This document shows positions 640 to 31,174 of a DNA stretch of 64,000 nucleotides, one piece after another. Source of the DNA: Naegleria gruberi (lineage: Eukaryota); assembly GCA_000004985.1 (NCBI GenBank), contig GG738867.1; one strand, given 5' to 3'. A model generated the notes under the pieces. The model searched no databases. It worked only from the letters and a program-made list of their open reading frames with translations, and was not told the origin of the DNA. Positions within the stretch are counted from its first letter, which is position 1. Each line of letters opens with the position of its first letter. The position numbers and the translations under genes are program-made.

Positions 640-2025
640 CTACCACCAACCTCCAACCTTAAATACATCTTTATACAATGCACGAGCTATTTCAATGAAT
701 TCACTTTGAACTTCTTTAGGAATGAACTCAAACGCCAAAATCTTAAATGATGGCCGTTTTGTTCGATTCTTGGCATCTGACTTGATGGCTTCTAAAATAA
801 TCACTCGATCACGTTTCAATTCATCGGATGCAAATTGAATTGCGTTTCCATCTTGTTGCACAGCTCGTAACACCAAATCTCTGTCATTTTTCAATATTAA
901 GGAAGCATATTCCAGAGCCATGCCTTCTTGTTTGACAGCTTCAAACATGACATCTCTGTCATTACTGCAAAATGAACCTCTGATTATATCAATTACAGAA
1001 CCAGAGTAGTATCTATAACTGTTTAGAGTTTGTAAAACTATTTCCTTTTCATTTTGTAGCTCAATAGATGCATATTCAAATGCCATTCCATTCGATTGAA
1101 GTGCTTTCATAACTATTTCTCTATGGTTTCTCAATTCGTGTGATGCAAATTCAAGAGAAATTCCATTTTGCTTAACAGCTTTCATTACAATTTCCTCATC
1201 TCTGTTAAATTCTTCTGATAAATATTCTAAAACAGTTCCTTTGGTTTTCACGCATTGTAAAACAAATTCTCTGAACCATTTCTTGTCATTTCTCAAATCT
1301 TGTGAAGGAAATCTGACAGCAATTCCATCATATTGAGCTGCTTTCATCAAAATTTCCTTGTCATTCCTTGCAATAGCTGACCATTTCAATATTTCTTCAG
1401 TTCCATTATACGATTTGCTTGTTTCCAGAGCTTTCAAAATCAAATCTCTATCCTCAGGAATATTCTCAAATATCCAATAAATCAATTTCCAATTTTCCAC
1501 AGCTTTTAACACAAATTGTTTGTTCTCCCACAAGTTGAGCACTTTTGCAATTCTAATTAACTTGTTTTCGTCTTTGAGTTTGAGAATTTCTTGAATAATA
1601 AACTTTTCGTCTCGTTTCCAATTCAATGAATTTCGAAAATTTAGAAAGGGTGAATTCTTGGAATGTTTTTTCATTGGGTTTTCTTCATCACTTTCATCTT
1701 CCAAATCTGAATCACTAGTTTCGTCTTCTTGATTACTTTCGTCTTGTTCATCTGAATCTGAATTTTCGTTATCAGAATTTTCTATGTTGGAATTTTCAAC
1801 GTCATGATGAAAGTGTGAAGGTTTCAAGTGAAAAGTTTCGAATATCGGTTTCATTATCATTTCAATTTTCAAAGCTTGGGGAACATCTTGGATTCGAATA
1901 GGAAGAAGTTTCGATTTGTGATGTATATCGAGAGAAATTATGACTGGTCCTGTGGTTGCATTTTGATCGGATTTGTTTTTCTTGTTCTTGTTGTGTGAAG
2001 CAGTATCTTGTAAGGATCGTTTCAT
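640..2025 (-). CDS. DUF4116-type repeat protein with an acidic Ser/Asp/Glu N-terminal tract
   Basis: 461-aa ORF with an ATG start. The C-terminal two thirds is about 10 tandem ~30-aa repeats (…L.YAS.ELKNDR[DE]IVL.AVKQ[DN]G.AL.FAS…) characteristic of the DUF4116 repeat family. Confidence 0.7.
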   Translation of the reverse strand: MKRSLQDTASHNKNKKNKSDQNATTGPVIISLDIHHKSKLLPIRIQDVPQALKIEMIMKPIFETFHLKPSHFHHDVENSNIENSDNENSDSDEQDESNQEDETSDSDLEDESDEENPMKKHSKNSPFLNFRNSLNWKRDEKFIIQEILKLKDENKLIRIAKVLNLWENKQFVLKAVENWKLIYWIFENIPEDRDLILKALETSKSYNGTEEILKWSAIARNDKEILMKAAQYDGIAVRFPSQDLRNDKKWFREFVLQCVKTKGTVLEYLSEEFNRDEEIVMKAVKQNGISLEFASHELRNHREIVMKALQSNGMAFEYASIELQNEKEIVLQTLNSYRYYSGSVIDIIRGSFCSNDRDVMFEAVKQEGMALEYASLILKNDRDLVLRAVQQDGNAIQFASDELKRDRVIILEAIKSDAKNRTKRPSFKILAFEFIPKEVQSEFIEIARALYKDVFKVGGWW

Positions 2026-2139: not shown

Positions 2140-3012
2140 TTATTGTTCTAACATTTTAGTGACAGCAGCGTTAATGTCACCATTAGTTTCTTGCAAAACT
2201 TTGATTAAAACACTGTCATCGACTGGGAATCCAAAACTACGTAATGTGGCAAGACTGTGTGGATCAACATTTGATTGTTGTGGTTGAACAGGTTGTGATA
2301 CTAATGGTGGTTGATTTACAACTGGTGGTTGTTGAACTGGTGATTGAGATGTAACACTTGGTGAGCTAAAGCTAGAATTGAGTGGATGTGGTTGTTGCAT
2401 AGTGACACTATTAGTCAATGTCTTTGTTGGAGTTGTAGTGGCAACTAATGGTGAAACATTACGAGGAACTCCACTTGCTTGAGTCATTGGTTGATTCATA
2501 GCAAATGGTTGCAATTGTGGTTGAGTGGATCCAAATGCCATAACTGGTGGTTGAACTGGTCTAATTGAAGGTTGTTGTGGTTGTTGTGGATACATTGGTT
2601 GGAAAGGATATGGATTTACAGGTTGAACTGGTTGAATAAATGGTGATTGTGTTACAGGAGGTTGAGGTTGAACAAATGGTGATTGAGTTACAGGTGGCTT
2701 TACAGGTTGAATTGGTTGAACAATAGGTTGTGTTACAGGAGGTTGAATTGGCTTTTGCTCAACAACAATTGTTTGTTCAACAACAGGATTTGTTTGTTTC
2801 TTTGGAGTCTTTCCTTCCTTTGCTTGGATCTTGAAAACACCATTCACAGATAACAAATGTCTGGCATGATTCATAGCATCATTAAATTCGGAATCAGTAT
2901 CAAAACGGATCCATTCATTTTGATCATCATTCCAAGCTAACAAAAGATCCTTATCAGCAACACTGGCATATCTTTTGATTTGTTCGGTTACTTGTTGCAA
3001 GTGAGTGGCCAC
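2140..3012 (-). CDS. UBA-domain protein with a Pro/Gln-rich linker and an N-terminal PB1/OPCA-like acidic motif; N-terminus unresolved
   Basis: C-terminal DPHSLATLRSFGFPVDDSVLIKVLQETNGDINAAVTKMLEQ matches the UBA consensus. The N-terminal WNDDQNEWIRFDTDSEFNDAMNH resembles a PB1 OPCA motif. The listed start is GTG and the frame stays open upstream without an ATG. The real start is probably supplied by an upstream exon or a frameshift (candidate ATG at 3266 in another frame). Confidence 0.6.
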   Translation of the reverse strand: MATHLQQVTEQIKRYASVADKDLLLAWNDDQNEWIRFDTDSEFNDAMNHARHLLSVNGVFKIQAKEGKTPKKQTNPVVEQTIVVEQKPIQPPVTQPIVQPIQPVKPPVTQSPFVQPQPPVTQSPFIQPVQPVNPYPFQPMYPQQPQQPSIRPVQPPVMAFGSTQPQLQPFAMNQPMTQASGVPRNVSPLVATTTPTKTLTNSVTMQQPHPLNSSFSSPSVTSQSPVQQPPVVNQPPLVSQPVQPQQSNVDPHSLATLRSFGFPVDDSVLIKVLQETNGDINAAVTKMLEQ

Positions 3013-3346: not shown

Positions 3347-5238
3347 TTGTTTGGACAACTGTTGATAATTAAAAAATCTGATACCAGTCAGTTTACAATG
3401 AGTCTGTCCTCTGGTAAGGTGTGCAATGCTGTCACAAGAAAAAAAATGCTTTCCCAAGATGATGAAAAAAGTTACCGAAATTGTCAAGAATTAGTTAAAT
3501 GGTTGGAGGAACAGAGGTGTCCACCCACGATTAGAAAAGGTAGGCTGCTCTAAGTGATTTATTAATTATTAATACTTTGGGTAAATCAGCATTACAAGAT
3601 AACGCTTGTGATGAGTGGATTTTGTGTAACAGTGATGAAGAAACTCTGTTGCAAGAATTAAATCTAACCAAATTACAATTACGCGCGTTGATGAGATTCA
3701 TCACTAACTCCTCCTCATCGTCAAGCAATAGCAGCAGCTCATCATCAAACTCTACCAAGAAAGATACACCACAAATTACTTCGAATGAATTTGACAACAA
3801 GTATAACAACATTGGTTTACTGGGAAGTGGAGGTTACGGAAAAGTGTATAAAGTGACGCTCAAGCATAAACCAAGTATTATGCGAGCTGTCAAGGTAATT
3901 GAAGATCGATACGATTTTACTGTTAACGAAGCATTGAAAGAAGTAATGCAAACAATGAAAGTTGCACACAAACATGTTGTGCAAATATATGATGTTACTA
4001 TTACTAATAATCGTTCACTGATGATTGAGATGGAATGTTTGGAATGTGGAAGTTTATACGACCATTTCATTAGGAAACGAGTTAAGCCTTCTGAAAGGAT
4101 AGCCATTTCAATCATTCAGCAGATATTAAGCGCACTTCAATTTATGCAAAAAAGTTTTAAAATGGTTCACAGAGATGTCAAACCAGCAAACATTTTGATT
4201 AGATCTATCGATTTAGACAAGGGTGAAATTGATGTTTGTTTGGCAGATTTTGGATTTGCAAGATCATTTGAACCTTCATCTCAAATATCTAACATTTACG
4301 GTACATTTTCTTATTTAGCTCCTGAAGTTAAATTAGTTTTGGACAATGATGAAATGAGATCAAAACAACCCTACTCAGTAGCTTCTGATATTTATGCATT
4401 AGGTGCAACAATGTTTTATCTAATGACGTTTAATCAAGCCAACCAAGCCAATCATCAATTATTGAATTCGCTAAACCATTACTCATCGAAACTGGTTGCA
4501 ATTATTTTGAAAATGTTAAGTGAAGATCCAATAGATAGACATTTAGAAATTACTACAATCAATATGTCACAAATTTCTACTTTTGGACATGATAACCAAG
4601 TCAAGGAATTAAAGAATCAAGTGACCGAAACAACCTTAGAATCTACAATTATTCAACATACTGCAAATCAAGAAAATATAGTTACTCAATATAATTTAGG
4701 TATGAAGTATATAAAAGGAGAAGGATGTGAAAAATCATTTGAAAAAGCATTTGAATGGTTTGAAAAATCTGCAAATCAAGGATATAATGAAGCCCAATAT
4801 AGGTTAGGTTTGATGTATTGCTTTGGACAAGGATGTAACGAATCATTTGAAAAAGCATTTGAATGGTATGAAAAATCTGCAAATCAAGGACATAATGAGG
4901 CGCAATTTAGGTTAGGTTTGATGTATTATCTTGGAAATGGATGTAAACAATCATTTGAAAAAGCATTTGAATGGTATGAAAAATCTGCAAATCAAGGAAT
5001 TGCTATTGCTCAACATATGTTTGGTGAGATGTATTTACAAGGAGAAGGATGCAAACAATTATTTGAAAAAGCATTTGAATGGTTTGAAAAATCTGCAAAT
5101 CAAGGATATAATGAAGCGCAATTTAATTTAGGTTCGATGTATTTAATTGGAGAAGGATGTGACAAATCATTTGAAAAAGCATTTGAATGGTTTGAAAAAT
5201 CTGCAAATCAAGGACACAAAATGCACAATTTTATTTAG
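3347..5238 (+). CDS. Ser/Thr protein kinase fused to a C-terminal Sel1 (TPR-like) repeat array; 2 exons (3347-3554, 3590-5238)
   Basis: Kinase motifs GSGGYGKVYKV, VKVIE, HRDVKPANIL, DFGFAR and APE are present. The 3577 ORF starts at TTG. The upstream ORF 3347-3553 joins through a 35-nt intron (3555-3589, GTAGGC…CAG) with correct phase, giving …PPTIRK|ALQDNAC…. From about 4690 onward there are repeated 36-aa Sel1 units (GC.KSFEKAFEWYEKSANQG..EAQF.LG.MY). Confidence 0.65.
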
Positions 5239-6038
5239 GTTTGATGTATTATAATGGACAAGGATGTCAACAATCATTTGAAAAAGCTCTTAAATGGTAT
5301 GAAAAATCTGCAAATCAAGGACATAATGAGGCGCAATTTAGGTTAGGTTTGATGTATTATCTTGGAAAAAGATGTAGACAATCATTTGAAAAAGCATTTG
5401 AATGGGTTGAAAAATCTGCAAATCAAGGATATGATGAAGCACAATTTAAGTTAGCCTGGATGTATTTTAATGGAGAAGGATGTGAAAAATCATGTGAAAA
5501 AGCATTTGAATGGTATGAAAAATCTGCAAATCAAGGTCATACAAAAGCTCCATATAGGTTAGGTTTGATGTATTATCTTGGAAAAGGATGTAAACAATCA
5601 TTTGAAAAAGCATTTGAATGGTATGAAAAATCTGCTAATCAAGAAAATGCAGTTGCTAAATTTAATTTAGGTTTGATGTATTATAATGGAGAAGGATGTC
5701 AACAATCATTTGAAAAAGCACTTAAATGGTATAAAAAAGCTGCTAATCAAGAACATGCTAATGCTCAATTTAATTTAGGTTTGATGTATTATAATGGAAA
5801 AGGATGTGAAAAATCATTTGAAAAAGCATTTGAATGGTATGAAAAAGCTGCTAATCAAGAACATGTAAATGCTCAACATGTATTTAGGTTAGATGTATTT
5901 TAATGGAGAAGGATGTAAACAATCATTTGAAAAAGCATTTGAATGGTATGAAAAATCTGCAAATCAAGGACATAATGGTGCGCAATTTAGGTTAGGTTTG
6001 ATGTATTATCTTGGAAAAGGATGTAGACAATCATTTGN
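4682..6038 (+). repeat. Tandem array of about 12.5 108-nt units encoding Sel1 repeats (protein-coding tandem repeat)
   Basis: Near-identical 108-nt periodicity from about 4690 to the N gap at 6039. Units differ by synonymous or conservative changes. Confidence 0.85.
5241..6038 (+). pseudogene. Frameshifted continuation of the Sel1 array (ORFs 5241-5903 and 5893-6111); either a decayed repeat tail or assembly errors next to a gap
   Basis: At about 5216-5240 the unit reads caaggacacaaaatgcacaattttatttagg instead of the canonical caaggacataatgaggcgcaatttaggttagg (indel). A second indel lies at about 5876-5900. The array runs into N's at 6039. Confidence 0.45.
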
Positions 6039-6087
6039 NNNNNNNNNNNNNNNNNNNNNNNNNNNNNNNNNNNNNNNNNNNNNNNNN
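6039..6087. other. Assembly gap (49 N)
   Basis: Run of N; convergent genes run into it from both sides. Confidence 0.99.
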
Positions 6088-8375
6088 GTTATTAAACTTT
6101 CTGTATTGTAACATTCAGAAGAATTTTTCAAATTTCGAGCAGTCTTGTTAAGTTTTTCTGTTGTCAATTCTTGGATATCGAAAAAGTCATCAATAATTGA
6201 GTCATCGGCAAAGTTGATGAAAATTCTGGATAATTTACGTTCCTCCTCGTGTAAGACATAATGTACATTCTGCCAATCGTCAATTTCCTTTGAAATTTCC
6301 TCAAATAGCATAATCCACAACTTTTTCACAAATACAAATCGATAACTATATGATGAATATTGAGAATCAGTTAAAAGGGTCAAAATACGTAATGCATGAA
6401 TAGCATTGGTGCCATACAAATTCTTTGGAAGGACTTGCTCATCGAAAACATTTTGTTTCTTGGAAGATTTCTTAGGTGTGGTTGGTGTCGAGTTATTGGA
6501 ATTATTTGCAGAGGATTTTTCACCATTACTTGATGAGGATGAAATTGGTGAGCTTGTTGGGTCATGTGAAGGACCTGGAGCAATATACAAATCTTTCTCG
6601 CTCAACAATTCAAATTCTGTTGTAACAGATGAAGATCTTAAACCAAAGAAGAGATTCATTACACTTGGAGAGAATCCTAACTTGTTACTAATCACGCTAT
6701 AAATCATTGGAATTAAGAATAGGAGAATAAAGTCCTTGTGTACCTCATCCTTTTCCGTATTCTTCTTTGAGATGTGAATGTCCATATAGGCCAGCCAAGA
6801 TTTAACAATTTCAACCAATTTTTCATTAACATCTGCAATAGCTTGAGATTTGAGAGTGATTTGCTCAACAGTTTTCTGAATTAATTGCTTGTCATGAGAT
6901 TGAATGGCTTTTAGAAGTTGAGTGAAGAGAATGGAAGATTTCATTTCCAATTCCTTATTTTGTTTAGAAACTGATGCGAGTGAGTCCAATGTCTTCTTAA
7001 TGAACTGAATTTCAGATTCATATGTTGGATAATTATCCGATACTGTGTTTGTTGAGTAAATGTCTTTGAATATTTCTTCCAAAAATTCACTTCTTATCTT
7101 TTCTCCCTTTTCATTGAGTTGCTTGATGGCTGGATCAATTCTTGAGAGATTTTCAATTTCCCTTCGTAGCATTGTGTTCTTTGTCTTGACATGGACATCA
7201 ATGGCAGAACATATTGACTGGAGAATGGAATCCAAAGATTGTCTGTCCCCAAATCTATTCAAATTCAATTTGAGAATTTGATACTCAGTATTCTGTGCAT
7301 CTCTATCAACTATGGAATCAACTTCACTTAATCTATACGATCCACCATATTCATCTCTTTTCTTATAATCTGAGGAGAATAGAGTTGTTAGATATTTAGG
7401 TTGTGTACTTTCGAATAATAGCAACTCTGAAATGGTTGTAATTTTCGTCGCACTTTCGGACAATAACACATTGGCCAATAATGCATGCTCACTTAATGAA
7501 GATGAAATGCATGATTTGTGCATTTGCTTGAGGGAAATGGATAAATTGATTGAACTTGCAACATCCTCAATTAAATTATTGAAACCATTAGATTTTTCAC
7601 CATTTCTTCTCATTGCATTGATAACATCCTCAACAAATTGAATATCAAACAAATCTTCGAGAATAATACTAACTACTTGATGGATCCAATCTTTGGAGAG
7701 TGAAGATTCCAATTGTGTCATGATTTCCATTACTAATAAATCAAAATACTTTTCAAATCCTAATTTTCTTCTCTTCTCTGGATTTTTAATGATGAATGCA
7801 ACCTTTGCAGGAAATAAATTCGTTAATTCCTTTGTCATTTTCATGACTTTTGCCAATCTTTGATGAAATTTCAATACTTCTGAATATCTTCTATGTGATG
7901 AAAGTGAACATTTTCCATTTCTGACAGTCATTGTTATTTGATATTTCATTTTCGATGTCCCAACAACAATGAATGGACAAGACAATTTGAAACACTTGAA
8001 TTCTGCTGATGGAATTAGTAATTGATCCTCCTGTGCGAGTTCACTCAACCAAGTAACTTTCTGTACATTGTTTTGTGATGTTATTGTGACTGGTGAAGAG
8101 GAAACACTATTTTCAACTCTAGGAGATTGTTGATCTTGTTTACCATTATTCGTATTGTTGTTGTTATTATTATTATTATTGTTGGCAGTATTAGAATCTG
8201 GTGGTGAAGAATTATTGGAAGAGGATTTTTGGAATCGTCCAGCCATTGGTGAAGTATTCGAAATGATTGTAGCAAATCTTCTCACTCTGACAGGTGTTGT
8301 TAGTTGACCTTGTTGCACAACTTCGGAAGAAGCATTATTCTCTTCACCTGATGATGGTGATGAGGTTTGGGACAT
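6088..8375 (-). CDS. PX (phox-homology) domain protein with a poly-Asn tract; C-terminus lost in the gap
   Basis: ATG at 8375. …KYQITMTVRNGKCSLSSHRRYSEVLKFHQRL…LFPAKVAFIIKNPEKRRKLGFEKYFDLL matches the PX-domain RR[YF]S[DE]F…P.LP…R(R/K)..L..Y motif. The frame is still open at the gap edge (…ECYNTESLI). Confidence 0.65.
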
Positions 8376-8933: not shown

Positions 8934-11900
8934 ATGATTAGAACATCATCATCGCTGCCGAAAAATAGTAGTGGCAAGGCTTCTTCAACAAAATCAAATA
9001 CTGAGGAGCTTTGTGATTATTATAAAAGATCATTTTCTTTATTGTATGGAGTTTTGACTTCTCCTGTAGATAATTTTCCGTGGGTATGTGTGGATTAATC
9101 ATCATGATGATTTTTAATATGAATTGTTTACTATTAAATAGGCTCAAGTTTTGGAAAGTGTAAAGAATTCATTAAAGGATGTATGGAAAAGTTTTGAAAA
9201 TAGAAAACCTGAAGAAAAGGATATCAAACAAAAGGATATTGTTTCTGAATTGGTGAAGAGAACGGTATGTTTTGGAGATATCAAAATTTATTGATTATCA
9301 TTCTTGTAGAAATTAAACGAAGATAGCTGTTACAGATTGTTGGAAGATTATGTTGTTTGTGAAGCTCCTGATGCTCTCACATCAGACTCACAATCCATTC
9401 AAAAAGTATGTTCACATTCTTGATTATTATAATAATTATAATAATAACTTAATTAATAATATTAATGGATTATTATCTAAATATTTAGATTATTAATTTT
9501 TATTATTCGGAAAGAATTTTATTACTAGAGTGTATTTCAACAATTCTTAGGATTGATACTGAATATTCGGAAGACGATAATTGTGATGAAAGGACAAAAG
9601 TTTGCCACGATATTGCAACTTGGCTTTTCAATAATAACCTTGAACAAACTATGCACACCCTATTTTTTGATGCCTGTGATATTAACACACATTTGAAGAG
9701 TATTAATGAGTCATCATTAACCGAGACTGAAGCCACCAGAAGAAAGGTAGAGCTTACCGAACAAAAATTGAATGAACAAGCTTCTATACTAAATGTCTTG
9801 TTCATGCTCTATTATGGAAGACAATGCGATTTCAAAACATTTTTAAATTTAATTTCTCAACATTATCATGTAAGTATACTGAAACTTAAATATATTACTC
9901 ACACTTGTTCTAAAGGCAAACGATTTCGGAAATATTAATAGAAGTATTGGAAATGTTTCTATTAAAGGATTTCAAACAATAAGGAGAATAGTATGTTTGT
10001 CTGTACTGCTCTTTGTGGAAATTCTTGGATTTGAAAACGCTCTTGAAAAAACAAATCAAGGTGGAACATACTCTTCCTTCAAAGAAAGAGAAATTGCTAT
10101 GATAAATGACAACCTCAAGACACTTATTGATGAACCTCACACGGCAGCCATCAGAATATTTTGGGCAGCTTTCCTTCATCTTACCCAAAATAATGTTTCA
10201 CCACAAGTAATTTATGATCTGGCTCAAAAAGGTATTAAAGAAAATGGATTGGAATTTATTAGAAAAATGTTTGACAGAGATGATAATCCATTTGTGGTAA
10301 ATAATAATAATATTGAGGGTTATAGAACAGTGGTTTCAGGAGGAGTTTCATGCATCTACTTTTTATTTAGATTCCACAAAATTCCATATCAAATTTTGGA
10401 GCAAGTTTTTTCTGTAACTGAAATAGTTATACAACCAAAACCATACTGTATCGAGGATCAAAAATTATCCATGATTTTTAACGATCAAATGTTACAGAAG
10501 CCATATAGCGAGCTGTTGACATATTTCAAATTAGTATTTCCTGCTAGGAAAGAAATTCTTAGATTATTATCTTTAATGTGTTGTGATAATCAAAGTACAG
10601 TGAGCGTGAGATCTATTATGGAGTCACAAGACACATACTGTATTGAGATGACCCACACAGAGCTTAAGAGAATATGCGGACTGGACCAATCAAATTCAAA
10701 TGAATGGGAAACAAAACAAACACCTTTAGTTACGATAACATCAGTTAGAGACGAGACTACTAATGTAGTGATTCCACCAAATGTACAATGCATAGTTGTT
10801 AATCAAACTGCAGAAACCTGCCTTGTAACTTTCAACTTTTCAAGCTATATTTGGAAACTCATGTTTAGTCAAATTATTGAAGTGTTGCAAAATTCTGTTT
10901 CTATCAATAATCCACATGTTCGTTCGACAATGCACTATTTTTTGAATTTACTCTATAGAGTCATTAGTTTCAAAATGCTTAACATTGAAAAATTAGAAAA
11001 ATACTTGATTGAATTGCTTTTAAGTAAGCAAATTTATTCATCCAGAGACGAGAAGAGAGGAATTGTACAACTTCTTTCACACTTATTGAAGTATTTCTCT
11101 GATTTCCCACTTTCAAGCATTCCTATGGAAATAGTATTATCATGTTCTAAATGTTTGCATGCTCTTTCTGAAGTATCTCCTGTGGATACAGCATGCCAAG
11201 TTTCTCTTTTGATTCAAAAGTATCATTTTTCAAATATTTTGAGAGAAGAATGTATGATTGGTAGATATGGTGCAACCCTAAGCTTACTGGACACAGTGTT
11301 GTCATTGGCCAAAAATCATCCAGGACCAATGGATTCTGTCATAGAAATTCAACCTTTTATTTGCAGCAACATATTTTCTGTTCATGATTCATGGAGATAT
11401 CAAAAATTGGAAGAAAGATGGTTGATTGCTCTTAAGTGTCTTCAAATTTTCAACCAAATTGCTCAAGATTCATTGTGGGCTGAAAGAAAGTCTTCTCAAT
11501 CTCTTGTAGGATGTGGTGGTAGACCACTTTTGAATGCCTTCCTTCACGATGGTAGTTTGTATCAAGTTTTGTTCTCATTGATTGGCTTGGGTGGTACTTT
11601 TCTTGAGAATATCCTTCGTCATGAAAAGACAGATGAAGCAGCAACAGTTCAAAGTCTTATTGTTGAATCTCTCAAGTTGTTGGATTCAATCTTGAGATTC
11701 AGACAAATTGCCAAAGCAACAAATATTTCAACATTTGAGGATGTACTTTTCTCAAAGTTACTAGGAAAACAACAAGTGCCACTCATTACTTCTATTTTTG
11801 AATTTATTGATCATCCTAATGCGCCAGAAATTAGAATTTTAGCATGTAAGATTATTACCTTGATTGCTCAACTCACTGAAGACTACAATTCCAGACCTCC

Positions 11901-14823
11901 ATCCCTTGTTGGTTATTTGGGTAACCAATCTAGCTCTCTAGTTGGGCGTTGCTTGTACAGACTTCAGAGTGTTGGTGAAAGTGATGAATTGAAAATTGCA
12001 CTTCTTGATTTAATTTCAACAACAGTAGAAATTCAAAGAGGTTTGGCTGACTTGTTCTTGACCTCAACACCAGCAAAGATTAAAATCAAGAAGGAGAAGA
12101 ACGATGAAGAGCTCGCCCCTGGAGGTGTTCTTGTTACAATTTTAAAGATTATAGAAAATACTGAAAATTATATTGTAGAAAAGAGAACAAGTCTAGTAAG
12201 AAGTGCTTTGGCTGTCATTCAATCTATTTTCCAAAATGGAGAGAATAGATCCAAAATTACAAAGATTTTAAGAAATGACAGCTATTTCTGGAAATCAATG
12301 AAGAATATGTTTACCATCTTTACCAAAGATGAATCCACTAGTAAGAATATTGATATCCTTAGATCTATTACTTCAGTTATTGCTATTTGCTCTGTCGATA
12401 TGTACAATCTCAGAATATTGAAACAAGACCATAGTATGGAAACTGATATTGAAAAGACTCTCTTTGAAAAGGACTCTAAAACAATTCAAACTATACTCAA
12501 GACTTCAATTTCATTCATTATGAACAATATTAACTACTTGTCTGGTCTTATTCAAGATATTGATAGACTTTCAAAGAGAGATTCACAACAATTGGGAAGA
12601 GAAATTTTCTTCTCGGACTATCTCCTTGAAAGAAATACCAAGAAGGATGTTCTGTATGATACAGATAGAATTGTGAGATGGGAAACTGGTATTAGTGCCG
12701 AGTTACTCGACTCTCTATCATTGCTAAATCAAAAAATTGCCGTAGAGGAAGCATTTATTGCTCTGCTTAAATCCTTGCATGCCTTGTTTTCTGTGAGCTT
12801 GGAATCTCCTCTTCTCACAAGAGAGGAATCATCTGAAGAATACTTTTTGAATATTATTGATATTCTAGTTGTAGGACTCAAGATTTCAGAAGGTGATGCT
12901 ATGACCAAATATGTTTTCAACCCAACCAATGAATTCGGTCTCGATCTTGAAGTTTATGTTCCATTGCCAAAACTTTTGGATAACCTATTGAATACCTTCC
13001 ACATTGAAGTTGCTGCAATGCTAGCCAAGCTAATCCACAAATTCAACGCCAATTTCCCTCCAACAGATTTGATTGAAAAGCACAGCAGTTGGCTTTCTGA
13101 CCATTTATCAAAGTTGACACATTTATTACATACACAAGTTCAAAGAAAGAAGTCTAATGCAACAAAAGAAATTTTGGGTTGTCTCTTGATGTACTTTGTT
13201 GATTTGGATGAAGCTATTGGTGTCAGAACATGTTCCAAACTCACTCCAATACTTTTCCAAATCTTGAAGACATTTAACAGATACGAGCAATGCACAGAAT
13301 TGGCTATTTCGATTTTGGCTGTTTGTATCAAAGTTACTATCAATGAAGAATATGGAAACTATATTTGCAGAGAACTATGTGAATGTTTGACCACTTTTGA
13401 TGGAGTTGACGAACAACATTCTAAACACACCATTAACGTTCTCAATTTACTTTTGGCTTTCTCCACTACTCGAGCTGGAAGTTCAATGATGGTTGCCAAC
13501 AATATCTTACAAAAGTTTTCTGGTTGTACATTTTTAAGTTCTGGATGTGGAAAATATGCAGGTCAGACCTACTTTGAAGGAGAAAGAACTTACTGGCATA
13601 CTGCTTGGAGATATAGCTTGAAGATTATCACTACTCTCTTGAATTGTTACTATGTTGCAACTCAACCTAAGAGAAATATGGCCATGATGGATGAAGATAC
13701 AAACTATGGTCAATATCAATATTTTGTTCAACAAGTTCAAGATTTTTGTAATACTCACAGAAAGAGATTAGTTTTAGGTTTGGATGAATTATGGGATAAG
13801 AGACCTTTGACTTTTGCTCTTATTGAAGAAGTTGAACTCATTGGTATGCTAGTGAATGCACTTGCCAGATCTCACATTTTACCAAATTTACCTTACCTTG
13901 TCCAATCATCTCTTGTAGCAACAGCCAAGTGCGTGAATGCTGTTAAGCATTTTAGATTGATTTTGTCTGCTGTTACCCCAATCACACAACACGAAAGAAA
14001 ACTCCACGAAAAGGACAAACATTATATGGAAGAACTTCGTGCCTCCAGACCAACCTCAACAGGTACCAAGACTAGACGCCCTTTCAGAGAAAGAACAAAC
14101 TATGAAAACACCATTCCTTACAATTCTGAAGAGTCTCCATTTATTACCCATGCTACAGATGCTATCAAGAATCTTTATCAAGGAAGAGAGATGTTAAATT
14201 GGAATACTCAAATAGATTTGACAGTTTTTGGAACATTACAAAGCTTGGTTGCATCCATTCGTTGTTTGACCATTCTTCCTAGTGATGATGGAATTGAACA
14301 ACCTGTAGAGCCTGTTATTGTTCTTTCAATGCAATCCAATAGCCCTAATATTGAAACAATCTTCAAATGTGCTGAAGCTTGTGTTGATACCCTAAAGATT
14401 ATACCTTCGAGCAAATATAATACTGAACTAAGCAACAACAAGACAGGAAATGAGCTTGGCTCTTCAACTCCAACCGAGACACTCTCACCTTCATTCAGCG
14501 CAACTACTGAAAGAATGAGCAAAGAACAAGAGGCTATGATTAAGGCTAGACTTTTGGTGACACGTGTAGTGGTGGGTACTTTACAGGAATCTATCAATGT
14601 TATTGTTTCACACGTTTTGATTTATGAATTTATTGCCTATGGAGAGGAAAGTCAATCTGTTCGTGAAGTAAGAAATCACATGAAGGAACGTTTTGAATTT
14701 TTCCACAGAACTTGTGAGGGATTGTCGACGAAAAGTTGGTTCTTTATGAAGCATCCTGAACCTTTGCGAACAGTGCTCACACTTTTGAGAGATGTTATCG
14801 ACCTAGGTGGTTTAAAACAATAA
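8934..14823 (+). CDS. Large (about 1885 aa) alpha-solenoid protein of unknown identity (size and class of a Nup188/Nup205-type scaffold; not verified); 5 exons
   Basis: Exons 8934-9083, 9142-9264, 9310-9405, 9489-9869 and 9916-14823. Introns have GTATGT or GTAAGT donors and AG acceptors (lengths 58, 45, 83, 46 nt). All junctions keep the frame. The 9997 ORF starts at TTG and is open upstream to the intron, so it is the last exon. Confidence 0.7.
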
Positions 14824-14831
14824 TTTATAAA

Positions 14832-16919
14832 TTACAATTTGTCTAGTATGTTTCTGACTCGCTTAAAGTTACTAACTTTTCGTTCCTGCAAAGTAGATTT
14901 GTCTGATTTTAAGAGCTGGTTCTTAAAATGCACTCGTTCATCAATCAAGTGTTGTTCATAATTTTCCAAATCTTTCCTCATACCTCCACCATTCATTTTA
15001 ATGTAGTGACTTAGGTTTCCTAGTAATGAATAGAAGCAACTTGTGGATACTATTCCATTTTCACTAGTTGAATATGCGACAGGAACATATTCTGGATGCT
15101 TATGTTTCTTGCTTATAAAAGTAAGAGTTGGCTGACTGCTGTGGTTTGCAACTTTTGCAGATTCATGGAAATTGGAAAACGAAAGTTCCAAATTAGTTTG
15201 GTAAATTCTTTGGGGAATTGGAACGCCAAAATTATTGTATATACAATCTAGTCCTAGTGTAGAATCGTTACTTTCTGCTGGTTGAGGTATCAGCCCAATA
15301 GCGCTGAATTTGATTTCCTTTCTCCAGTTTTGTGTGCTTAATTTGTATTTCTGTAATAAGGTTTTATCCAATATCGAAGGGAAGTATGGAATTCTAGAAG
15401 ACAACTCTACATATGATGAAATGTCAACAGAGCAAGGTGCTGTCACATTCAAAGTGAATGAATTACCCCATGCACTTGAGCTTACACCTGAAAAGTACAA
15501 TCTTCTACCATCTCGATCGGTTTCAATAAGTGTTCCCTTCACATATAGCTTGGAAACAATTTGACTGTGCACATATTCGTTTCTAGATGGTCTATGAACT
15601 CCTTTAGGTTTAAAGTTTGCTTTTTTCACTTTGGAAATTGGTGGTTGACCCTCCAATCTAATCATTCTGTATCTGTATACTAAAGCTCCAAAATCACCTG
15701 TTTTTAACCTTTGTGGTTCTCTCCAATAATCGGTAACCCAATATAACCCATCATATCTATAACCTTTAGCAGGTGCATAGGCAGAATCTAATTGATAACC
15801 TCTCACAAGTCTGACTGGCATTCTTCTTTTCATACTCTCCACCAAACTGATATTATATCGATTAAGAGTTTGATTCTCAGTATCAGTACCACCTTGACCA
15901 GTATAAATAAAAACATCTCCATAATCTTCGTCTCCATATCCACCCATAGCCATAGCAACAATAGAATCAGATGGAACACCAAAATGCCCACTGATACCAG
16001 GTTGAGTTGGTGTGTGTGAACCTTTCCTTGAGCATGTTAATCTAGTTTCATAAACTGTAAAGACGTCATCTCTGTGACCATACACTCTACTTTTAATCCT
16101 GATAGGTTCTGTGAGTAGCTCATCTGCCTTCTCATCTCTGTATCGAATAGTTTTCCACTCGGAAGCTTTTCCCATAAACTTTTTGTCCTTCTCTGTAATT
16201 GTTGAACTTCTCTTTAGTTTCATATCAATTTCAAGTTTCTTTGTTTCCTGATCCTCCTCTTCGTCATGAGTGGCAACAACAAGTCTTGAACCAGAGTGAT
16301 GCAAAAGTTTGACAGATCCATTCTTTATATCCACAAAAGCATCTGTTCTTCCAGCTTCATTATTTTCCATGCAAATTGTAACAAGATCCTTATCTTTCAC
16401 TTGAGTGATGTCCTTACTTTCATCATAGTCAATTGCACAAAATGGTGTGGAATCTGAAATGAAAGCAGTCAAAGTAACTCTTTGCTTTTTATCATTAGCC
16501 TTCTCCGTCACTTGGTCAATTTTGGCTATCATGTTGCTCTCCTTTTCATCATCCTCTTCAAGTTGCAACTTTTTTGATTGTTTCCGTGATGATGCATTTT
16601 TCCATTCCTTCGCCGAAGTTAATTTTGCCTGTTTGGCTTTGGATACTCCATTAGTTGATGTTGTCTTTCTCTTGTTGTTAGTTTTATCACTTGTTGTTGT
16701 TGATGATTTTGATTTCTTATTATTGGTTGTCTTTGACTTGGTTATAACAGGAGAAGACATTAATTCATCAGAGTCATCAGATAATTCATTCATTTTCTTC
16801 TTCTTACTCCTATTAATCTTATATTCCTCATATTGATCCGATGAAGAAGAATCATCTAAATATTTTGTGTGATTCTTGTTGGTTAGAGTAGCCGTTTCAC
16901 CACTCCTGATAATTCTCAT
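14832..16919 (-). CDS. SRA-YDG domain protein (methyl-cytosine reader-type domain) with Lys/Ser/Thr-rich N-terminus and uncharacterised C-terminal half
   Basis: ATG at 16919. GISGHFGVPSDSIVAMAMGGYGDEDYGDVFIYTGQGG…PVRLVRGYQ…GYRYDGLYWVTDYW…RLEGQPP matches the SRA/YDG consensus (GG[YF].DD…IYTG.GG…PVRV.RG…YDGLY.V). No SET, RING or PHD domain was found. Confidence 0.75.
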   Translation of the reverse strand: MRIIRSGETATLTNKNHTKYLDDSSSSDQYEEYKINRSKKKKMNELSDDSDELMSSPVITKSKTTNNKKSKSSTTTSDKTNNKRKTTSTNGVSKAKQAKLTSAKEWKNASSRKQSKKLQLEEDDEKESNMIAKIDQVTEKANDKKQRVTLTAFISDSTPFCAIDYDESKDITQVKDKDLVTICMENNEAGRTDAFVDIKNGSVKLLHHSGSRLVVATHDEEEDQETKKLEIDMKLKRSSTITEKDKKFMGKASEWKTIRYRDEKADELLTEPIRIKSRVYGHRDDVFTVYETRLTCSRKGSHTPTQPGISGHFGVPSDSIVAMAMGGYGDEDYGDVFIYTGQGGTDTENQTLNRYNISLVESMKRRMPVRLVRGYQLDSAYAPAKGYRYDGLYWVTDYWREPQRLKTGDFGALVYRYRMIRLEGQPPISKVKKANFKPKGVHRPSRNEYVHSQIVSKLYVKGTLIETDRDGRRLYFSGVSSSAWGNSFTLNVTAPCSVDISSYVELSSRIPYFPSILDKTLLQKYKLSTQNWRKEIKFSAIGLIPQPAESNDSTLGLDCIYNNFGVPIPQRIYQTNLELSFSNFHESAKVANHSSQPTLTFISKKHKHPEYVPVAYSTSENGIVSTSCFYSLLGNLSHYIKMNGGGMRKDLENYEQHLIDERVHFKNQLLKSDKSTLQERKVSNFKRVRNILDKL

Positions 16920-28430: not shown

Positions 28431-28503
28431 GCCCGTCCAGCTCAGTCGGTAGAGCGCAAGGCTCTTAACCTTGTGGTCGTGGGTTCGACCCCCACGGTGG
28501 GCG
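28431..28503 (+). tRNA. tRNA-Lys (anticodon CTT)
   Basis: GCCCGTCCAGCTCAGTCGGTAGAGCGCAAGGCTCTTAACCTTGTGGTCGTGGGTTCGACCCCCACGGTGGGCG. The cloverleaf has a 7-bp acceptor stem. The anticodon loop CTCTTAA, the box A/B-like D and T arms, and near-identity to metazoan Lys-CTT support the call. A T-rich terminator follows. Confidence 0.9.
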
Positions 28504-28984
28504 AATGCCTTTTGCTAATTGTTCTCTTTTATTTTGATTTCAACAAGAATAAAATTAACTAAAAAATATTTGAAACTCCAGATTTCACTCTCTGTTAGCT
28601 CATTTCATTGTTCTTTTGATAATTTTTTTTTAGTTGGAACTTGTGAGACAGAGAAGTTGTTTTCCACCTTTCTTTATTGACCCACTATAACCTATTGCTT
28701 TCAATAAATGAAAGGAAAGTTATCTTAATTTGAATTACTAAACTGCTATTTAGAAAAATATATTATTTGAAAGTTACTAGTTTCCAGGTAGAGTAACAGA
28801 GTCACATCAATTTACAACATGCTGCCTTTCATGTTAGCTTGTCTCATTTTAGTAATTTAGAGTTTGTTAAAATGTCAGTTGACGTAACAGGAGAGTAGCA
28901 CCCATAGAAAACATTCAATGATTTGTGATACCACCGAAATTCACTTCTTTATTAACAAGTGCATTCTGTATTGTTAAAAAAAAC

Positions 28985-31174
28985 ATGTCGAAAGGTTTCG
29001 TACAACTCGTTGCATGTTTGTTTGCCTTGTTGATGGTGATAACCGCAACTATAGCAACAACAGTCAACATTCAAGATTATCTTCCAAACTCTGAGAAATC
29101 TCTCATTGAGCAAGGAACCAGTTCCCTTGATTGCAGCTCTATCATTTCGTCCATTGTTTCCAATACTACTAATGGAGGTTCGGTAAATGTATTCTTTCCA
29201 AAAGGTGTCTACAGTATCAAATCATCTATTACTCTCTCACTAGCCACATCCTCTCTCACCAATGAATACGAAATCACATTCACAGGTGAAGCATTTCACA
29301 GCTCTGTACTAAACTTGAAAGGAGCAAGTGGAAGAATCACATTCCAAAATTCAGATTCTAACAAGAGTTTGAGAGTTAGATTGGCCTTCTTGAGTTTCAT
29401 CAATGATGGAGACTCTACTGGAAGTCCAATGGTTGACTTGAAATCGGTCGACTCATCAGATTTTAACAGTGTTTACATTAAGAATAATAATCCAAATAAG
29501 GTGATTTCTAATTTACGTATCATGAATGGTAATTTGGTTAAATCAAATGGTCATTACAAGTTGCTTGTGTTGAATGGTGCAACTGGACATAATCTTGTAT
29601 TCGATACTGCCAGCTCAGTTGTCAGTACTCATGTCTACTCATGCGACACTTGTTTATTGACATTGGCCACTGCTCTCGATAGTCAATCCACGAATCTACT
29701 CTTCGACAATCAAAGTTCTCTCAACAAGGATTCGAATATTTTGTGGTCTCTTCCAAATTCTCATCTTTCGTACTATCCAGGTGATAATGACTATTCGAAA
29801 TATACCTATGGAATCAGATATGGTGGAATGTCCAAACAATCAAGCATTAATCTCATTATGAATGGAGGTGGATTTGAAAATCAACGTGTCATGATTCAAC
29901 CTTCGTCCAATTCGAATGACCTTTCGTCTGCTGATTTCTATTCTGCTTTATTTATGGGAAATTTGCACGGTAGCTCAGTGATGCGAGCATCCAATGACAG
30001 AAATGGAAGAATGGGATTTTATTCATGTAGATTCGTTAATTTAGTTTATGGAGTTTCGTCTAATCCATCACTTCCAAATTCAAAGACCTTAATGGGTTCT
30101 TCTATCTTTTACAATATCGAACAAGAAAAGATGACATTCGATTCAATGACAAATGTCATGGGAACAACCATTGGACTCACTCTCAAATACAATACAATAG
30201 CACAAGTTAGTGCTGGAGCTTCTTCCATTGACATTACCTATGAGAGTCAATTCGACAAGATTCCAACATTCTTCTCAATAACACCAACTTGGGATACCAT
30301 CTATTACATTTCAAAAGTTTCCACTGCTGGGTTGACTATTCAGTTTTCTTCAGCTCCTAGTGCATCCTCTTATTTATATGTTGATGTGAGTGCTCAGAGA
30401 ACTGCATCATGTTCAAAAGGATTTTCTGGTGCCAATTGTTCCATTCCAGTTTGTAATGGAATTGCAGCAGATGTCAGTGGTGTTTGTAATGGAAATGGCC
30501 AATGTTTGGCACCTGACACTTGTTCATGCAATGGAAATTCCTGGACTGCTTCTAGTTATTGTAAAGATGCCATCTGTGGTGGATTGAGTGGTGCAAGTGC
30601 ATGTGGTGGTTCAAATCGTGGCTCTTGCTCATCACCAAATACTTGCACATGCATCAACAAGTATTATGGAAATTCGTGTGAAAAATTTGATTGTTTTGGA
30701 GTTTTGTATTCCAGTTCAAAGGTTTGCTCATCGAATGGAACTTGTGTTTCACCTGATAAATGTTCATGTATGAATGGATGGTTGGGTGTTAATTGTAATG
30801 AGACTGTTTCGAATAATTCCAATGGTACAATTAATGGAACTATTGTGAATAATTCAACTAATAGTGGAAACGAAACTTTTGTTTGTCCAGCTGGATATGG
30901 AGGAGTGAATTGTTCAGCACCAATTTGTTTCGGTTATTTGGCAAATGATACGAAAGTTTGTAATAATGGAAAGGGAATTTGTCAATCTCCTAATAATTGT
31001 CTTTGTTTGGCTGGATGGAGTGGAGTCAATTGTGCCACAATGTCAGTAAGTGCCTCCAGCTCTTCAACCACCACAACACCAAAAACATCTACAAGATTGA
31101 ATGATTCGAATAGAATGATAACTGGATGGTTGATTGTTTTATTAGGTCTTTTTGCATTATTTTCTTCTATTTAA
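28985..31174 (+). CDS. Type-I membrane surface protein with a signal peptide, a beta-rich Ser/Thr/Asn-rich ectodomain, about 7 EGF-like Cys repeats and a C-terminal TM anchor
   Basis: True ATG at 28985 (MSKGFVQLVACLFALLMVITA; the track start 28925 is GTG). Repeats follow the pattern C.C..G..G..C (CSCNGNSWTAS.YC, CTCINKYYGNSC, CSCMNGWLGVNC, CLCLAGWSGVNC). The terminal ITGWLIVLLGLFALFSSI is hydrophobic. Confidence 0.65.
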   Translation: MSKGFVQLVACLFALLMVITATIATTVNIQDYLPNSEKSLIEQGTSSLDCSSIISSIVSNTTNGGSVNVFFPKGVYSIKSSITLSLATSSLTNEYEITFTGEAFHSSVLNLKGASGRITFQNSDSNKSLRVRLAFLSFINDGDSTGSPMVDLKSVDSSDFNSVYIKNNNPNKVISNLRIMNGNLVKSNGHYKLLVLNGATGHNLVFDTASSVVSTHVYSCDTCLLTLATALDSQSTNLLFDNQSSLNKDSNILWSLPNSHLSYYPGDNDYSKYTYGIRYGGMSKQSSINLIMNGGGFENQRVMIQPSSNSNDLSSADFYSALFMGNLHGSSVMRASNDRNGRMGFYSCRFVNLVYGVSSNPSLPNSKTLMGSSIFYNIEQEKMTFDSMTNVMGTTIGLTLKYNTIAQVSAGASSIDITYESQFDKIPTFFSITPTWDTIYYISKVSTAGLTIQFSSAPSASSYLYVDVSAQRTASCSKGFSGANCSIPVCNGIAADVSGVCNGNGQCLAPDTCSCNGNSWTASSYCKDAICGGLSGASACGGSNRGSCSSPNTCTCINKYYGNSCEKFDCFGVLYSSSKVCSSNGTCVSPDKCSCMNGWLGVNCNETVSNNSNGTINGTIVNNSTNSGNETFVCPAGYGGVNCSAPICFGYLANDTKVCNNGKGICQSPNNCLCLAGWSGVNCATMSVSASSSSTTTTPKTSTRLNDSNRMITGWLIVLLGLFALFSSI

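What the first reader, a model, noticed from the sequence alone, without database searches (positions are those of the whole stretch)
3347..6087. Kinase-Sel1 fusion gene with a 1.35-kb 108-nt tandem array, two frameshifts and truncation by an assembly gap
The kinase domain (two exons) is fused to at least 12 Sel1 repeats encoded by almost identical 108-nt units. The frame is broken at about 5216-5240 and about 5876-5900 by small indels. The array then runs into 49 N. Either the repeat tail is decaying (a pseudogenised distal part) or the assembly of this near-perfect tandem array is collapsed or erroneous. The true repeat number is undetermined. Kinase-Sel1 architectures are unusual outside a few protist lineages.
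Basis: seen in the sequence. Interest (0 to 1): 0.5.

Follow-up and report, generated by a model that had tools for sequence, protein, structure and literature searches.

The report
Naegleria kinase–Sel1 gene, unfinished assembly
This is an ordinary, already annotated Naegleria gruberi protein-kinase gene with a tail of Sel1 repeats; its two frame breaks and its missing end lie next to a gap in an old draft assembly and cannot be called real or artefact without the reads.

Summary
The window is Naegleria gruberi. Positions 3398-6037 (+) encode a Ser/Thr protein kinase (Pfam Pkinase, E 3e-40, all catalytic motifs present). It is followed by 13 Sel1 units of 108 nt. Unit 6 is 107 nt (an A run of four at 5218-5221). 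Unit 12 is 109 nt (extra base near 5886, plus a TAG at 5890-5892 in the Sel1 frame). The net shift is zero. The array runs into 50 N (not 49).

The units are 71-96% identical (mean 82%), so they are not almost identical. The kinase domain lies wholly in exon 2. The public model (515 aa) stops at the first frame break.

"Decay" is not supported. The out-of-frame units match Sel1 as well as the in-frame ones, and 235 codons stay open.

The rarity claim is wrong. The closest kinase relatives are Naegleria lovaniensis proteins, four of which carry 5-21 Sel1 units. Bacterial kinase-Sel1 fusions are also abundant.

No independent sequence of this locus was found. Artefact (about 0.5) and a recent real truncation (about 0.37) stay unresolved.

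Low interest: a new member of a known kind, with a recently amplified repeat array.

The parts
3398..3539 (+). Putative exon 1 (ATG 3398; 47 codons plus 1 base). An N-terminal extension with no recognisable domain.
   Evidence: Open frame from the ATG and phase-correct junction to exon 2. No Pfam hit and no homologue covers it. It is absent from the public model P0001. Inferred, not shown.
3540..3589 (+). Putative 50-nt intron, GTAGGC...TCAG, phase 1.
   Evidence: Read from the sequence. Splicing it out joins the two open frames. An alternative donor at 3414 (GTAAGG) is also in phase. There is no transcript evidence.
3590..5238 (+). Exon 2 up to the first stop: Ser-rich linker, kinase domain, linker, and Sel1 units 1-5 plus the start of unit 6. 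The public 515-aa model P0001 is 3691-5238.
   Evidence: P0001 is 100% identical, named 'predicted protein [Naegleria gruberi]'.
3802..4536 (+). Protein kinase catalytic domain (aa 119-363). Motifs: GSGGYG 3823-3840, Lys of RAVK within 3883-3897, HRDVKPAN 4168-4191, DFG 4246-4254, APE 4318-4326.
   Evidence: Pfam PF00069 E 3.4e-40. Motif coordinates. Best solved-structure matches are CDPK/CaMK/STE20/ULK at E about 1e-21.
4657..6037 (+). Sel1 repeat array: 13 units of 36 codons (108 nt), the last cut at 85 nt by the gap.
   Evidence: TRF period 108, 12.5 copies. Unit table. Pfam Sel1.
5218..5221 (+). Lesion 1: an A run of four where five would keep the frame (unit 6 is 107 nt). It leads to TAG at 5236-5238.
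   Evidence: Adding one A gives KSANQGHKNAQFYLGLMYYNGQGC, a good Sel1 unit (67 bits).
5196..5900 (+). Shifted open frame (235 codons) that carries Sel1 units 6-12. It is not translated if lesion 1 is real.
   Evidence: Pfam Sel1 223 bits, 6 repeats.
5886..5903 (+). Lesion 2 (unit 12 is 109 nt): extra A at 5886 relative to the closest unit (unit 4). TAG at 5890-5892 in the Sel1 register. T run of four at 5898-5901. TAA at 5901-5903 ends the shifted frame.
   Evidence: Removing A5886 leaves an in-frame TAG. Removing one T instead gives a stop-free ORF but a weaker unit (39 against 60 bits).
5893..6037 (+). End of unit 12 and unit 13, back in the kinase's reading frame and open into the gap.
   Evidence: Pfam Sel1 E 1.6e-13.
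6038..6087 (.). Assembly gap of 50 N. It hides the 3' end of this gene and the stop codon of the convergent neighbour.
   Evidence: The second gap in the window (62410-62459) is also exactly 50 N, which suggests a nominal length (inference).
6088..8375 (-). Convergent neighbour, an orthologue of the N. fowleri and N. lovaniensis 'PX domain-containing protein'. It is open into the gap. It is context, not part of the gene.

Best explanation
This is a genuine Naegleria gruberi gene for a cytosolic Ser/Thr protein kinase. It has a short N-terminal region of unknown fold, a Ser-rich linker, a catalytically complete kinase domain and a C-terminal Sel1-like repeat array.

The kinase belongs to a heterolobosean-specific family that is combined with different repeat modules: Sel1, TPR or DUF4116.

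By analogy with other repeat-bearing kinases, the Sel1 array most likely acts as a protein-binding platform that recruits substrate or a regulator to the catalytic domain. This is inferred, not shown.

In N. gruberi the array was recently amplified or homogenised from a 108-nt unit. Its scaffold half is conserved and its surface positions are variable.

The draft Sanger assembly could not carry the contig through this array. The gap, and most likely the three frame-breaking features in the last 820 nt before it, are defects of an unfinished contig end or a mis-piled repeat. They are probably not biology. The true gene would then be a continuous ORF of at least 863 codons with 13 or more Sel1 units.
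For: Identity: a 100% match to an N. gruberi predicted protein.

Domains: Pkinase and 12 Sel1 matches. All catalytic motifs are present.

Family: the exhaustive search puts N. lovaniensis, Willaertia and N. gruberi kinases nearest. Four N. lovaniensis relatives carry Sel1 arrays: P0270, P0272, P0279 and P0262. One metagenome protein, P0281, does too.

Recent amplification: units here are 69% (protein) and 82% (DNA) alike, against 28-38% (protein) in those four N. lovaniensis relatives. Conserved residues use identical codons.

In favour of artefact:
- All lesions lie within 820 nt of a contig end inside a tandem repeat.
- Units 3, 7 and 13 are 95-96% alike, and the array holds exact repeats of 60 nt or more (for example 4862 against 5293), which are the conditions for mis-piling.
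- The kinase domain and units 1-5 (about 1.8 kb) are clean.
- Distal units show no loss of Sel1 signal (also 223 bits for 6 repeats against 182 for 5).
- The net frame shift is zero.
- Two single-base homopolymer corrections give a stop-free ORF of 863 codons.
- The same gap also removed the neighbour's stop codon and corrupted its public model.
- The assembly is a Sanger draft, and it is the only N. gruberi genome tabulated in a 2023 comparison (PMC9928731).

Role of Sel1 in a kinase: in eEF2K the SEL1-like domains are needed to phosphorylate substrates in trans (PMC3268225). [quoted passage not shown]
Against: Sanger consensus rarely miscounts a run of four, to my knowledge.

By homology to unit 4, lesion 2 is an inserted base plus an in-frame TAG. 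The artefact reading therefore needs three errors, not two.

A recent real frameshift would leave exactly the same picture, because too little time would have passed for detectable decay.

No reads, quality values, transcripts or second assembly could be consulted.

No orthologue sits at the syntenic position in N. fowleri or N. lovaniensis to serve as a template.

The function of the Sel1 array is analogy only.
Confidence: 0.5

Rival explanations
1. The lesions are real and recent. The gene now makes the annotated truncated protein (kinase plus 5 Sel1 units, stopping at 5236-5238). Units 6-13 are a freshly silenced, not yet eroded remnant, possibly in only one allele.
For: The first stop leaves the kinase and five good Sel1 units intact. 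N. lovaniensis relatives function with as few as 3-5 Sel1 units (P0272).

Downstream of the first stop there are two further disabling changes (an inserted base and a TAG). That is expected once the tail is untranslated.

Several singular replacements at otherwise invariant positions fall in units 7-9: G23R, Y35V, G15A, F28C and Q11P.

Sanger consensus is usually reliable for four-base runs (my own knowledge).
Against: Distal units score no worse than proximal ones. The pN/pS ratio is not higher distally (0.95 against 1.45).

The lesions cluster at the contig end beside a gap. The two changes of lesion 2 lie 4 nt apart, which looks like a local quality problem.
Confidence: 0.37
2. The whole locus is a dead pseudogene, with kinase and repeats both non-functional.
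For: There are frame breaks and a stop in the 3' third. No orthologue is found at the syntenic site in two other Naegleria species. The N-terminus has no homologues.
Against: About 1.84 kb (3398-5235) is free of stops. Every catalytic motif is intact. The kinase scores 138.6 bits against a cut-off of 31.7.
Confidence: 0.05
3. The breaks are bridged at expression, by programmed ribosomal frameshifting or transcriptional slippage at the A and T runs, or by tiny introns.
For: The two shifts cancel (-1, then +1), and both lie at or near short homopolymers.
Against: There is no X XXY YYZ heptamer in the zero frame at either site, read from the sequence. Four-base runs are, to my knowledge, too short for polymerase stuttering.

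Sel1 homology switches frame at the A run itself. The homology-based register leaves a TAG.

The only GT..AG segments that would fix the phase are 8-13 nt long. That is far below the roughly 50-70 nt introns I read by eye in this window (putative 3540-3589; the second kinase gene).
Confidence: 0.03
4. The kinase ORF and the distal Sel1 ORF (5241-5903) are two separate genes or transcripts.
For: the ORF listing reports them as separate ORFs.
Against: There is no intergenic space. The break falls inside unit 6 of a regular 108-nt array. The distal ORF starts in mid-repeat and has no ATG in a sensible context.
Confidence: 0.02

Closest known systems
Naegleria lovaniensis kinase-Sel1 proteins: C9374_009419 (P0270, 905 aa), C9374_005935 (P0272, 651 aa), C9374_012870 (P0279, 1772 aa) and C9374_012872 (P0262, 2270 aa)
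   Same: They are among the nearest kinase-domain relatives, at 31-39% identity in an exhaustive search. The order is the same: a kinase followed by a C-terminal Sel1 array of 5-21 units by my profile, 3-12 by Pfam for the three scanned. They come from the same genus.
   Different: They are not orthologues. The N-terminal region differs: their N-termini resemble each other and not this one (read by eye). The genomic position differs. Their Sel1 units are old and heterogeneous, 28-38% alike and 36-44 aa long. Here the units are a uniform 36 aa and 69% alike.
Other members of the same heterolobosean kinase family with other repeat modules: Willaertia magna ABK040_013012 (kinase + TPR, P0267); N. 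lovaniensis C9374_009965 and C9374_007252 (DUF4116 repeats + kinase, P0273 and P0274)
   Same: The kinase domain is related, at 35-40% identity. The logic of joining a kinase to a repeat module is the same.
   Different: The repeat type is different. For DUF4116 the repeats lie N-terminal to the kinase.
Bacterial Ser/Thr kinases fused to Sel1 repeats, for example Akkermansia sp. MDO4750948.1 (P0250, in the cluster of P0007, 936 aa) and a 643-aa family in gut-metagenome contigs (P0111)
   Same: Both carry Pkinase plus a C-terminal Sel1 array. Their Sel1 units are the best non-self matches to this array, at 40-53% identity.
   Different: In the kinase-only searches the kinase domain is only distantly related: the best match whose gene neighbourhood looks bacterial is 28% identical. 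At least one of these proteins appears to have a membrane-spanning stretch between kinase and repeats (P0003, by eye). Nothing here tests for or suggests gene transfer.
[quoted passage not shown]
   Same: A kinase with C-terminal SEL1-like repeats. The repeats are required for phosphorylating substrates in trans, and the C-terminal domain that holds them docks the substrate eEF-2 (PMC3268225, PMC9258954). It is the best-studied model for how such a tail can work.
   Different: Its catalytic domain is an alpha-kinase, not a conventional protein kinase. It has a calmodulin-binding region and few, diverged repeats. It is a functional analogy only.
Sel1-like repeat (SLR) proteins in general (Pfam PF08238; for example Helicobacter Hcp proteins, SEL1L/Hrd3)
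   Same: The 36-residue unit and its consensus positions match, with very strong Pfam scores.
   Different: Most are secreted or membrane-associated adaptors without an enzymatic domain (my own knowledge). The unit-to-unit identity here is unusually high.

Membership tests
Eukaryotic protein kinase superfamily (Pfam PF00069) | Profile match above the curated cut-off | tested here: met
   138.6 bits against a cut-off of 31.7, aa 119-363.
Eukaryotic protein kinase superfamily (Pfam PF00069) | Catalytic motifs: Gly-rich loop, VAIK Lys, HRD..N catalytic loop, DFG, APE | tested here: met
   GSGGYG 126-131, RAVK (Lys 149), HRDVKPAN 241-248, DFG 267-269 and APE 291-293. HRDVKPAN is the Ser/Thr type of catalytic loop.
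Eukaryotic protein kinase superfamily (Pfam PF00069) | Phosphotransferase activity | not testable with these tools
   Needs an enzyme assay.
Sel1-like repeat family (Pfam PF08238) | Tandem 36-44-residue units that match the Sel1 profile | tested here: met
   5 + 6 + 1 repeats scoring 181.7, 223 and 51.1 bits against a cut-off of 30.7. The period is 36 codons.
Sel1-like repeat family (Pfam PF08238) | Alpha/alpha solenoid fold | tested here: inconclusive
   The single-sequence AlphaFold2 model of P0001 has a mean pLDDT of 42 and is unusable.
Heterolobosean kinase family combined with repeat modules (this report's grouping, not a curated family) | Nearest kinase-domain relatives are heterolobosean | tested here: met
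   Of the 20 hits whose names were looked up, 14 are from N. lovaniensis, N. fowleri, N. gruberi or Willaertia magna, including most of the best-scoring ones.
Heterolobosean kinase family combined with repeat modules (this report's grouping, not a curated family) | One-to-one orthology with an N. lovaniensis or N. fowleri kinase-Sel1 gene (synteny, shared N-terminal domain) | tested here: not met
   The syntenic neighbour of the PX-like gene in both species is a short-chain dehydrogenase, not a kinase. The N-termini differ. It is therefore a lineage-specific paralogue.
eEF2K / alpha-kinase family | Alpha-kinase catalytic domain | tested here: not met
   The Pfam hits are Pkinase and PK_Tyr_Ser-Thr. 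No alpha-kinase hit appears.
Decayed pseudogene | Disabling lesions spread along the gene, and relaxed constraint after the first lesion | tested here: not met
   There are no lesions in 3398-5217. Distal units score 64.6 bits against 62.0 for proximal ones, Mann-Whitney p = 0.83. A very recent disablement is not excluded.
Programmed -1/+1 frameshift site | Slippery heptamer (X XXY YYZ) or a known +1 shift site at the frame change | tested here: not met
   Read directly from 5212-5238 and 5880-5903. No canonical heptamer is present, and no downstream structure was examined.

The most novel reading that the evidence does not exclude
The Sel1 array is a fast-evolving recognition module of a Naegleria-specific family of sensor-like kinases that exchange repeat modules (Sel1, TPR, DUF4116). 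In N. gruberi it was recently amplified. Its scaffold half is frozen even at silent sites, and replacements concentrate at about nine surface positions (overall pN/pS about 1.1-1.45). This would point to diversifying selection for new ligands such as prey or intracellular bacteria. Repeat-number change and homopolymer frameshifts would then be real, recurrent ways of varying or switching the receptor.
Probability: 0.08. Interest if true: 0.45.

Novelty: new member of a known kind. Interest (0 to 1): 0.15.

Why it matters
It matters mainly for annotation. The public N. gruberi model (515 aa) is probably truncated at both ends. Its N-terminal exon is missing, and at least eight Sel1 units are cut off by a frame break. 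The neighbouring gene's model has an invented C-terminus because its stop codon lies in the same gap.

A modest biological point also follows. Naegleria and Willaertia have a lineage-specific kinase family that is joined to different repeat modules. I found no paper that describes it. This N. gruberi member shows an unusually young, uniform Sel1 array.

None of this bears on a long-standing question.

Tried and rejected
- My first guess from composition and architecture was an arbuscular mycorrhizal fungus (Rhizophagus). The 100% match to N. gruberi rejected it.
- The look-up of contigs that encode P0001 found no record.
- Two exact-match scans of the metagenome contigs, one with a conserved 32-mer of the array and one with a 26-mer of the kinase, found nothing. 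No independent copy of the locus was obtained.
- The word-indexed search with the kinase part alone made the kinase look like an orphan, with a best non-self hit of 28% identity. The exhaustive search corrected this.
- The N-terminal region has no Pfam hit even at E = 10 and no homologue. I suspected a SAM-like fold from the sequence pattern. I could not test it, because the structure tool refuses spliced sequences.
- The single-sequence AlphaFold2 model of P0001 has pLDDT 42 and was discarded. No fold search was run.
- The literature searches for Naegleria + Sel1 + kinase and for the N. gruberi kinome returned nothing that describes this family.
- Tiny introns or recoding as a way to bridge the breaks were considered and rejected from the sequence.
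- Codon-position and pN/pS comparison of proximal and distal units showed no sign of relaxed constraint. The test has little power for a recent event.
Full report
**What is in the sequence**

The region was read directly. Three-frame translation shows an open frame from 3544 to 5235, a second one in another frame from 5196 to 5900, and a return to the first frame from 5893 into an N run. The N run is 6038-6087, which is 50 N rather than 49. A second gap at 62410-62459 is also exactly 50 N.

Tandem Repeats Finder reports one array at 4685-6037. Its period is 108, with 12.5 copies and 82% matches. A conserved motif (AAAAATCTGCAAATCAAG) recurs exactly every 108 nt, with two exceptions: 5195->5302 is 107 nt and 5842->5951 is 109 nt.

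**Gene model**

- An ATG at 3398 opens a 47-codon frame.
- A 50-nt GT..AG segment (3540-3589) joins that frame in phase to the long frame.
- The spliced conceptual protein up to the first stop is 596 aa.
- Pfam finds Pkinase at aa 119-363 (E 3.4e-40) and five Sel1 repeats in it. It finds six more Sel1 repeats in the shifted ORF (223 bits) and one more after the return to frame.
- The kinase domain (3802-4536) lies entirely in exon 2. All catalytic motifs are present: GSGGYG, the Lys of RAVK, HRDVKPAN, DFG and APE.
- Exon 1 and the intron rest only on ORF and splice-site logic. The N-terminal 118 aa have no Pfam match and no homologue.
- I read other introns in the window by eye in the second kinase gene. 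They begin GTATGT or GTAAGT, so the donor GTAGGC here is not ideal.

**Origin and public status**

The protein search returns a 100% identical 515-aa 'predicted protein [Naegleria gruberi]' from a 424-kb contig (P0001). That model starts at the internal Met (ATG 3691) and ends at TAG 5236-5238, which is the first frame break. The locus is therefore already annotated, in truncated form.

The convergent neighbour (6088-8375, minus strand) is also an N. gruberi predicted protein. It has 46-49% identical orthologues in N. fowleri and N. lovaniensis, named 'PX domain-containing protein'. The uninterrupted ORF aligns with them to within about one residue of their C-termini and then meets the gap. 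The public model P0258 instead jumps to another frame to find a stop. The gap has therefore damaged both gene models.

A 2023 comparison of Naegleria genomes lists a single N. gruberi assembly (NEG-M), made by Sanger sequencing. The N. lovaniensis type-strain assembly there is PacBio, and one N. fowleri assembly is Nanopore (PMC9928731).

**Anatomy of the array**

There are 13 units, each of 36 codons. Unit 1 is degenerate and unit 13 is cut at 85 nt.

- Pairwise DNA identity is 71-96%, mean 82%.
- Units 3, 7 and 13 are 95-96% alike. Exact repeats of 60 nt or more occur, for example 4862 against 5293.
- The half of the unit that encodes ...SFEKAFEWYEKSANQG is nearly invariant, including silent sites.
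- Differences concentrate at about nine codons (7-9, 13, 16, 19, 20, 22, 25), and almost all change the amino acid.
- Differences are spread evenly over codon positions (72/69/61).
- Nei-Gojobori pN/pS among units is about 1 (0.95-1.45).

This is the pattern of a young or homogenised array with a fixed scaffold and variable surface positions. It does not by itself prove positive selection.

**The lesions**

*Lesion 1.* The sequence CAC AAAA TGC has four A's (5218-5221). With five A's the unit reads KSANQGHKNAQFYLGLMYYNGQGC, a good Sel1 unit.

*Lesion 2.* Compared with its closest unit (unit 4), unit 12 has an extra A at 5886 (TTT[A]GG). Once that base is removed, a TAG stands at 5890-5892 where the other units have TTG or GAG.

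Alternatively, dropping one T of TTTT (5898-5901) gives a stop-free frame. Together with the A-run correction this produces an ORF of 863 codons that runs into the gap. The middle of unit 12 is then an out-of-register translation. It scores 39 bits instead of 60.

A strict homology reading therefore needs three base-level errors for the artefact hypothesis. The most lenient reading needs two homopolymer miscounts.

**Decay or artefact?**

I built a Sel1 profile from 197 units taken from other proteins. On it, in-frame units 2-5 average 62.0 bits and out-of-frame units 6-11 average 64.6 bits (Mann-Whitney p = 0.83). The Sel1 frame stays open for 235 codons, while the other frames have stops about every 33 codons. 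There is thus no measurable erosion of the tail.

That result fits an artefact. It fits equally well a real but very recent frameshift.

Points in favour of artefact:
- All lesions lie in the last 820 nt of a contig that ends inside a tandem repeat.
- The two changes of lesion 2 are 4 nt apart and about 150 nt from the contig end.
- About 1.8 kb upstream is clean.
- Near-identical units invite mis-piling of reads.

Points in favour of real lesions:
- Sanger consensus seldom miscounts four-base runs (my own knowledge).
- A stop followed by further lesions downstream is what a truncation would produce.
- Relatives function with as few as 3-5 Sel1 units.

No independent sequence could be found. 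I put artefact at about 0.5 and real recent truncation at about 0.37.

**Family context**

The word-indexed search with the kinase part alone found nothing closer than 28% identity. The exhaustive HMMER search of 1.84 billion representatives did find relatives. Source names show that most of the best ones are heterolobosean:

| Protein | Source | Length | Architecture |
|---|---|---|---|
| P0270 (C9374_009419) | N. lovaniensis | 905 aa | kinase + 8 Sel1; 39% identity |
| P0272 | N. lovaniensis | 651 aa | kinase + 3-5 Sel1 |
| P0279 | N. lovaniensis | 1772 aa | kinase + 12-21 Sel1 |
| P0262 | N. lovaniensis | 2270 aa | several kinase domains + Sel1 |
| P0267 | Willaertia magna | 1337 aa | kinase + TPR |
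| P0273, P0274 | N. lovaniensis | 693 and 913 aa | DUF4116 repeats + kinase |
| P0263 | N. gruberi | 292 aa | kinase only; 43% identity |

Sel1 units in the four N. lovaniensis Sel1-bearing relatives are only 28-38% alike at the protein level and vary in length. Here they are 69% alike.

The gene has no counterpart at the syntenic place in N. fowleri or N. lovaniensis. There the gene convergent with the PX-like gene is a short-chain dehydrogenase. The N-terminal regions also differ. It is therefore a lineage-specific paralogue with a recently amplified array.

**How common is the architecture?**

By my count of the table, 58 of the 120 best hits to the kinase-plus-Sel1 query carry both PF00069 and PF08238. 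They include:
- a cluster named 'protein kinase [Akkermansia sp.]';
- a 643-aa family seen on many gut-metagenome contigs, in a dense neighbourhood with VapE-like, DarT and DUF6602 genes;
- P0003, a 973-aa protein of an unnamed NCBI assembly that lies beside two other kinase genes in a compact, bacteria-like neighbourhood;
- a Mortierellomycota protein, P0071.

Both Sel1 repeat and protein tyrosine kinase motifs are reported among the inflated gene families of Rhizophagus irregularis. That paper does not state a fusion of the two (PMC6123716).

The statement that the architecture is unusual outside a few protists is not supported.

**Likely mechanism (inferred)**

The protein is predicted to be an active Ser/Thr kinase. 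The Sel1 array most plausibly forms a protein-binding platform that recruits substrate or a regulator, or holds the kinase in a complex.

The best-studied parallel is eEF2K. Its SEL1-like domains are needed to phosphorylate substrates in trans (PMC3268225). [quoted passage not shown]

I could not obtain a usable structure model.

**Verdict**

The locus is an annotated member of a Naegleria kinase-repeat family in an unfinished stretch of a draft assembly. Its only mildly notable feature is the young, uniform Sel1 array. Interest is low.

Noticed in passing
window 6088-8375 (-): The public model of the neighbouring PX-like gene (P0258, 661 aa) has a C-terminus that does not match its N. fowleri and N. 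lovaniensis orthologues. The uninterrupted ORF matches them to the end and then meets the gap. The stop codon is lost in the 50 N, and the gene caller appears to have switched frame to find one.
   Followed up: yes
window 640-2025 (-): The ORF upstream of the kinase gene encodes a DUF4116 repeat protein (Pfam E 1.5e-66). DUF4116 repeats are fused to kinases of the same family in N. lovaniensis (P0273, P0274). I did not examine whether this adjacency means anything.
   Followed up: partly
window 62410-62459, with flanks 62158-63200 (+): The second assembly gap is also exactly 50 N. It interrupts an ORF that reads ...STIDYR before the gap and ...IGHSIGAQ after it. By eye this resembles an alpha/beta-hydrolase with its nucleophile elbow. 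Pfam gave only a weak Abhydro_lipase hint (E 0.18) for the part before the gap.
   Followed up: partly
window 33963-37214 (+): A second, unrelated protein kinase gene. Its N-lobe lies in ORF 33963-35345 and its C-lobe in 35571-37214. By eye it is split by at least two short introns that begin GTATGT or GTAAGT.
   Followed up: partly
window 28431-28503, 43745-43817, 52826-52906, 61945-62025 (+): Four tRNA genes, all on the + strand: Lys-CTT, Asn-GTT, Ser-CGA and Ser-TGA.
   Followed up: no
window 9997-14823 (+): A 1608-codon open frame with no Pfam match at E <= 1e-4. Other large ORFs in the window: a SAD/SRA domain protein (14832-16919, -), a myosin head (58554-61088, -) and an EGF/teneurin-like repeat protein (28925-31174, +).
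   Followed up: no
L002 and L003 1-7932 (gut-metagenome contigs, ENA): A 643-aa kinase-Sel1 protein seen on many contigs. It sits in a compact block with DUF6602, a second kinase, DUF6939 and DarT, next to VapE-like and BT4734-like genes. This looks like a mobile element, perhaps a defence island.
   Followed up: no
window 2620-2712: A 36-nt tandem repeat (2.4 copies, 80% matches) inside the minus-strand ORF 2140-3012, which has no Pfam match.
   Followed up: no
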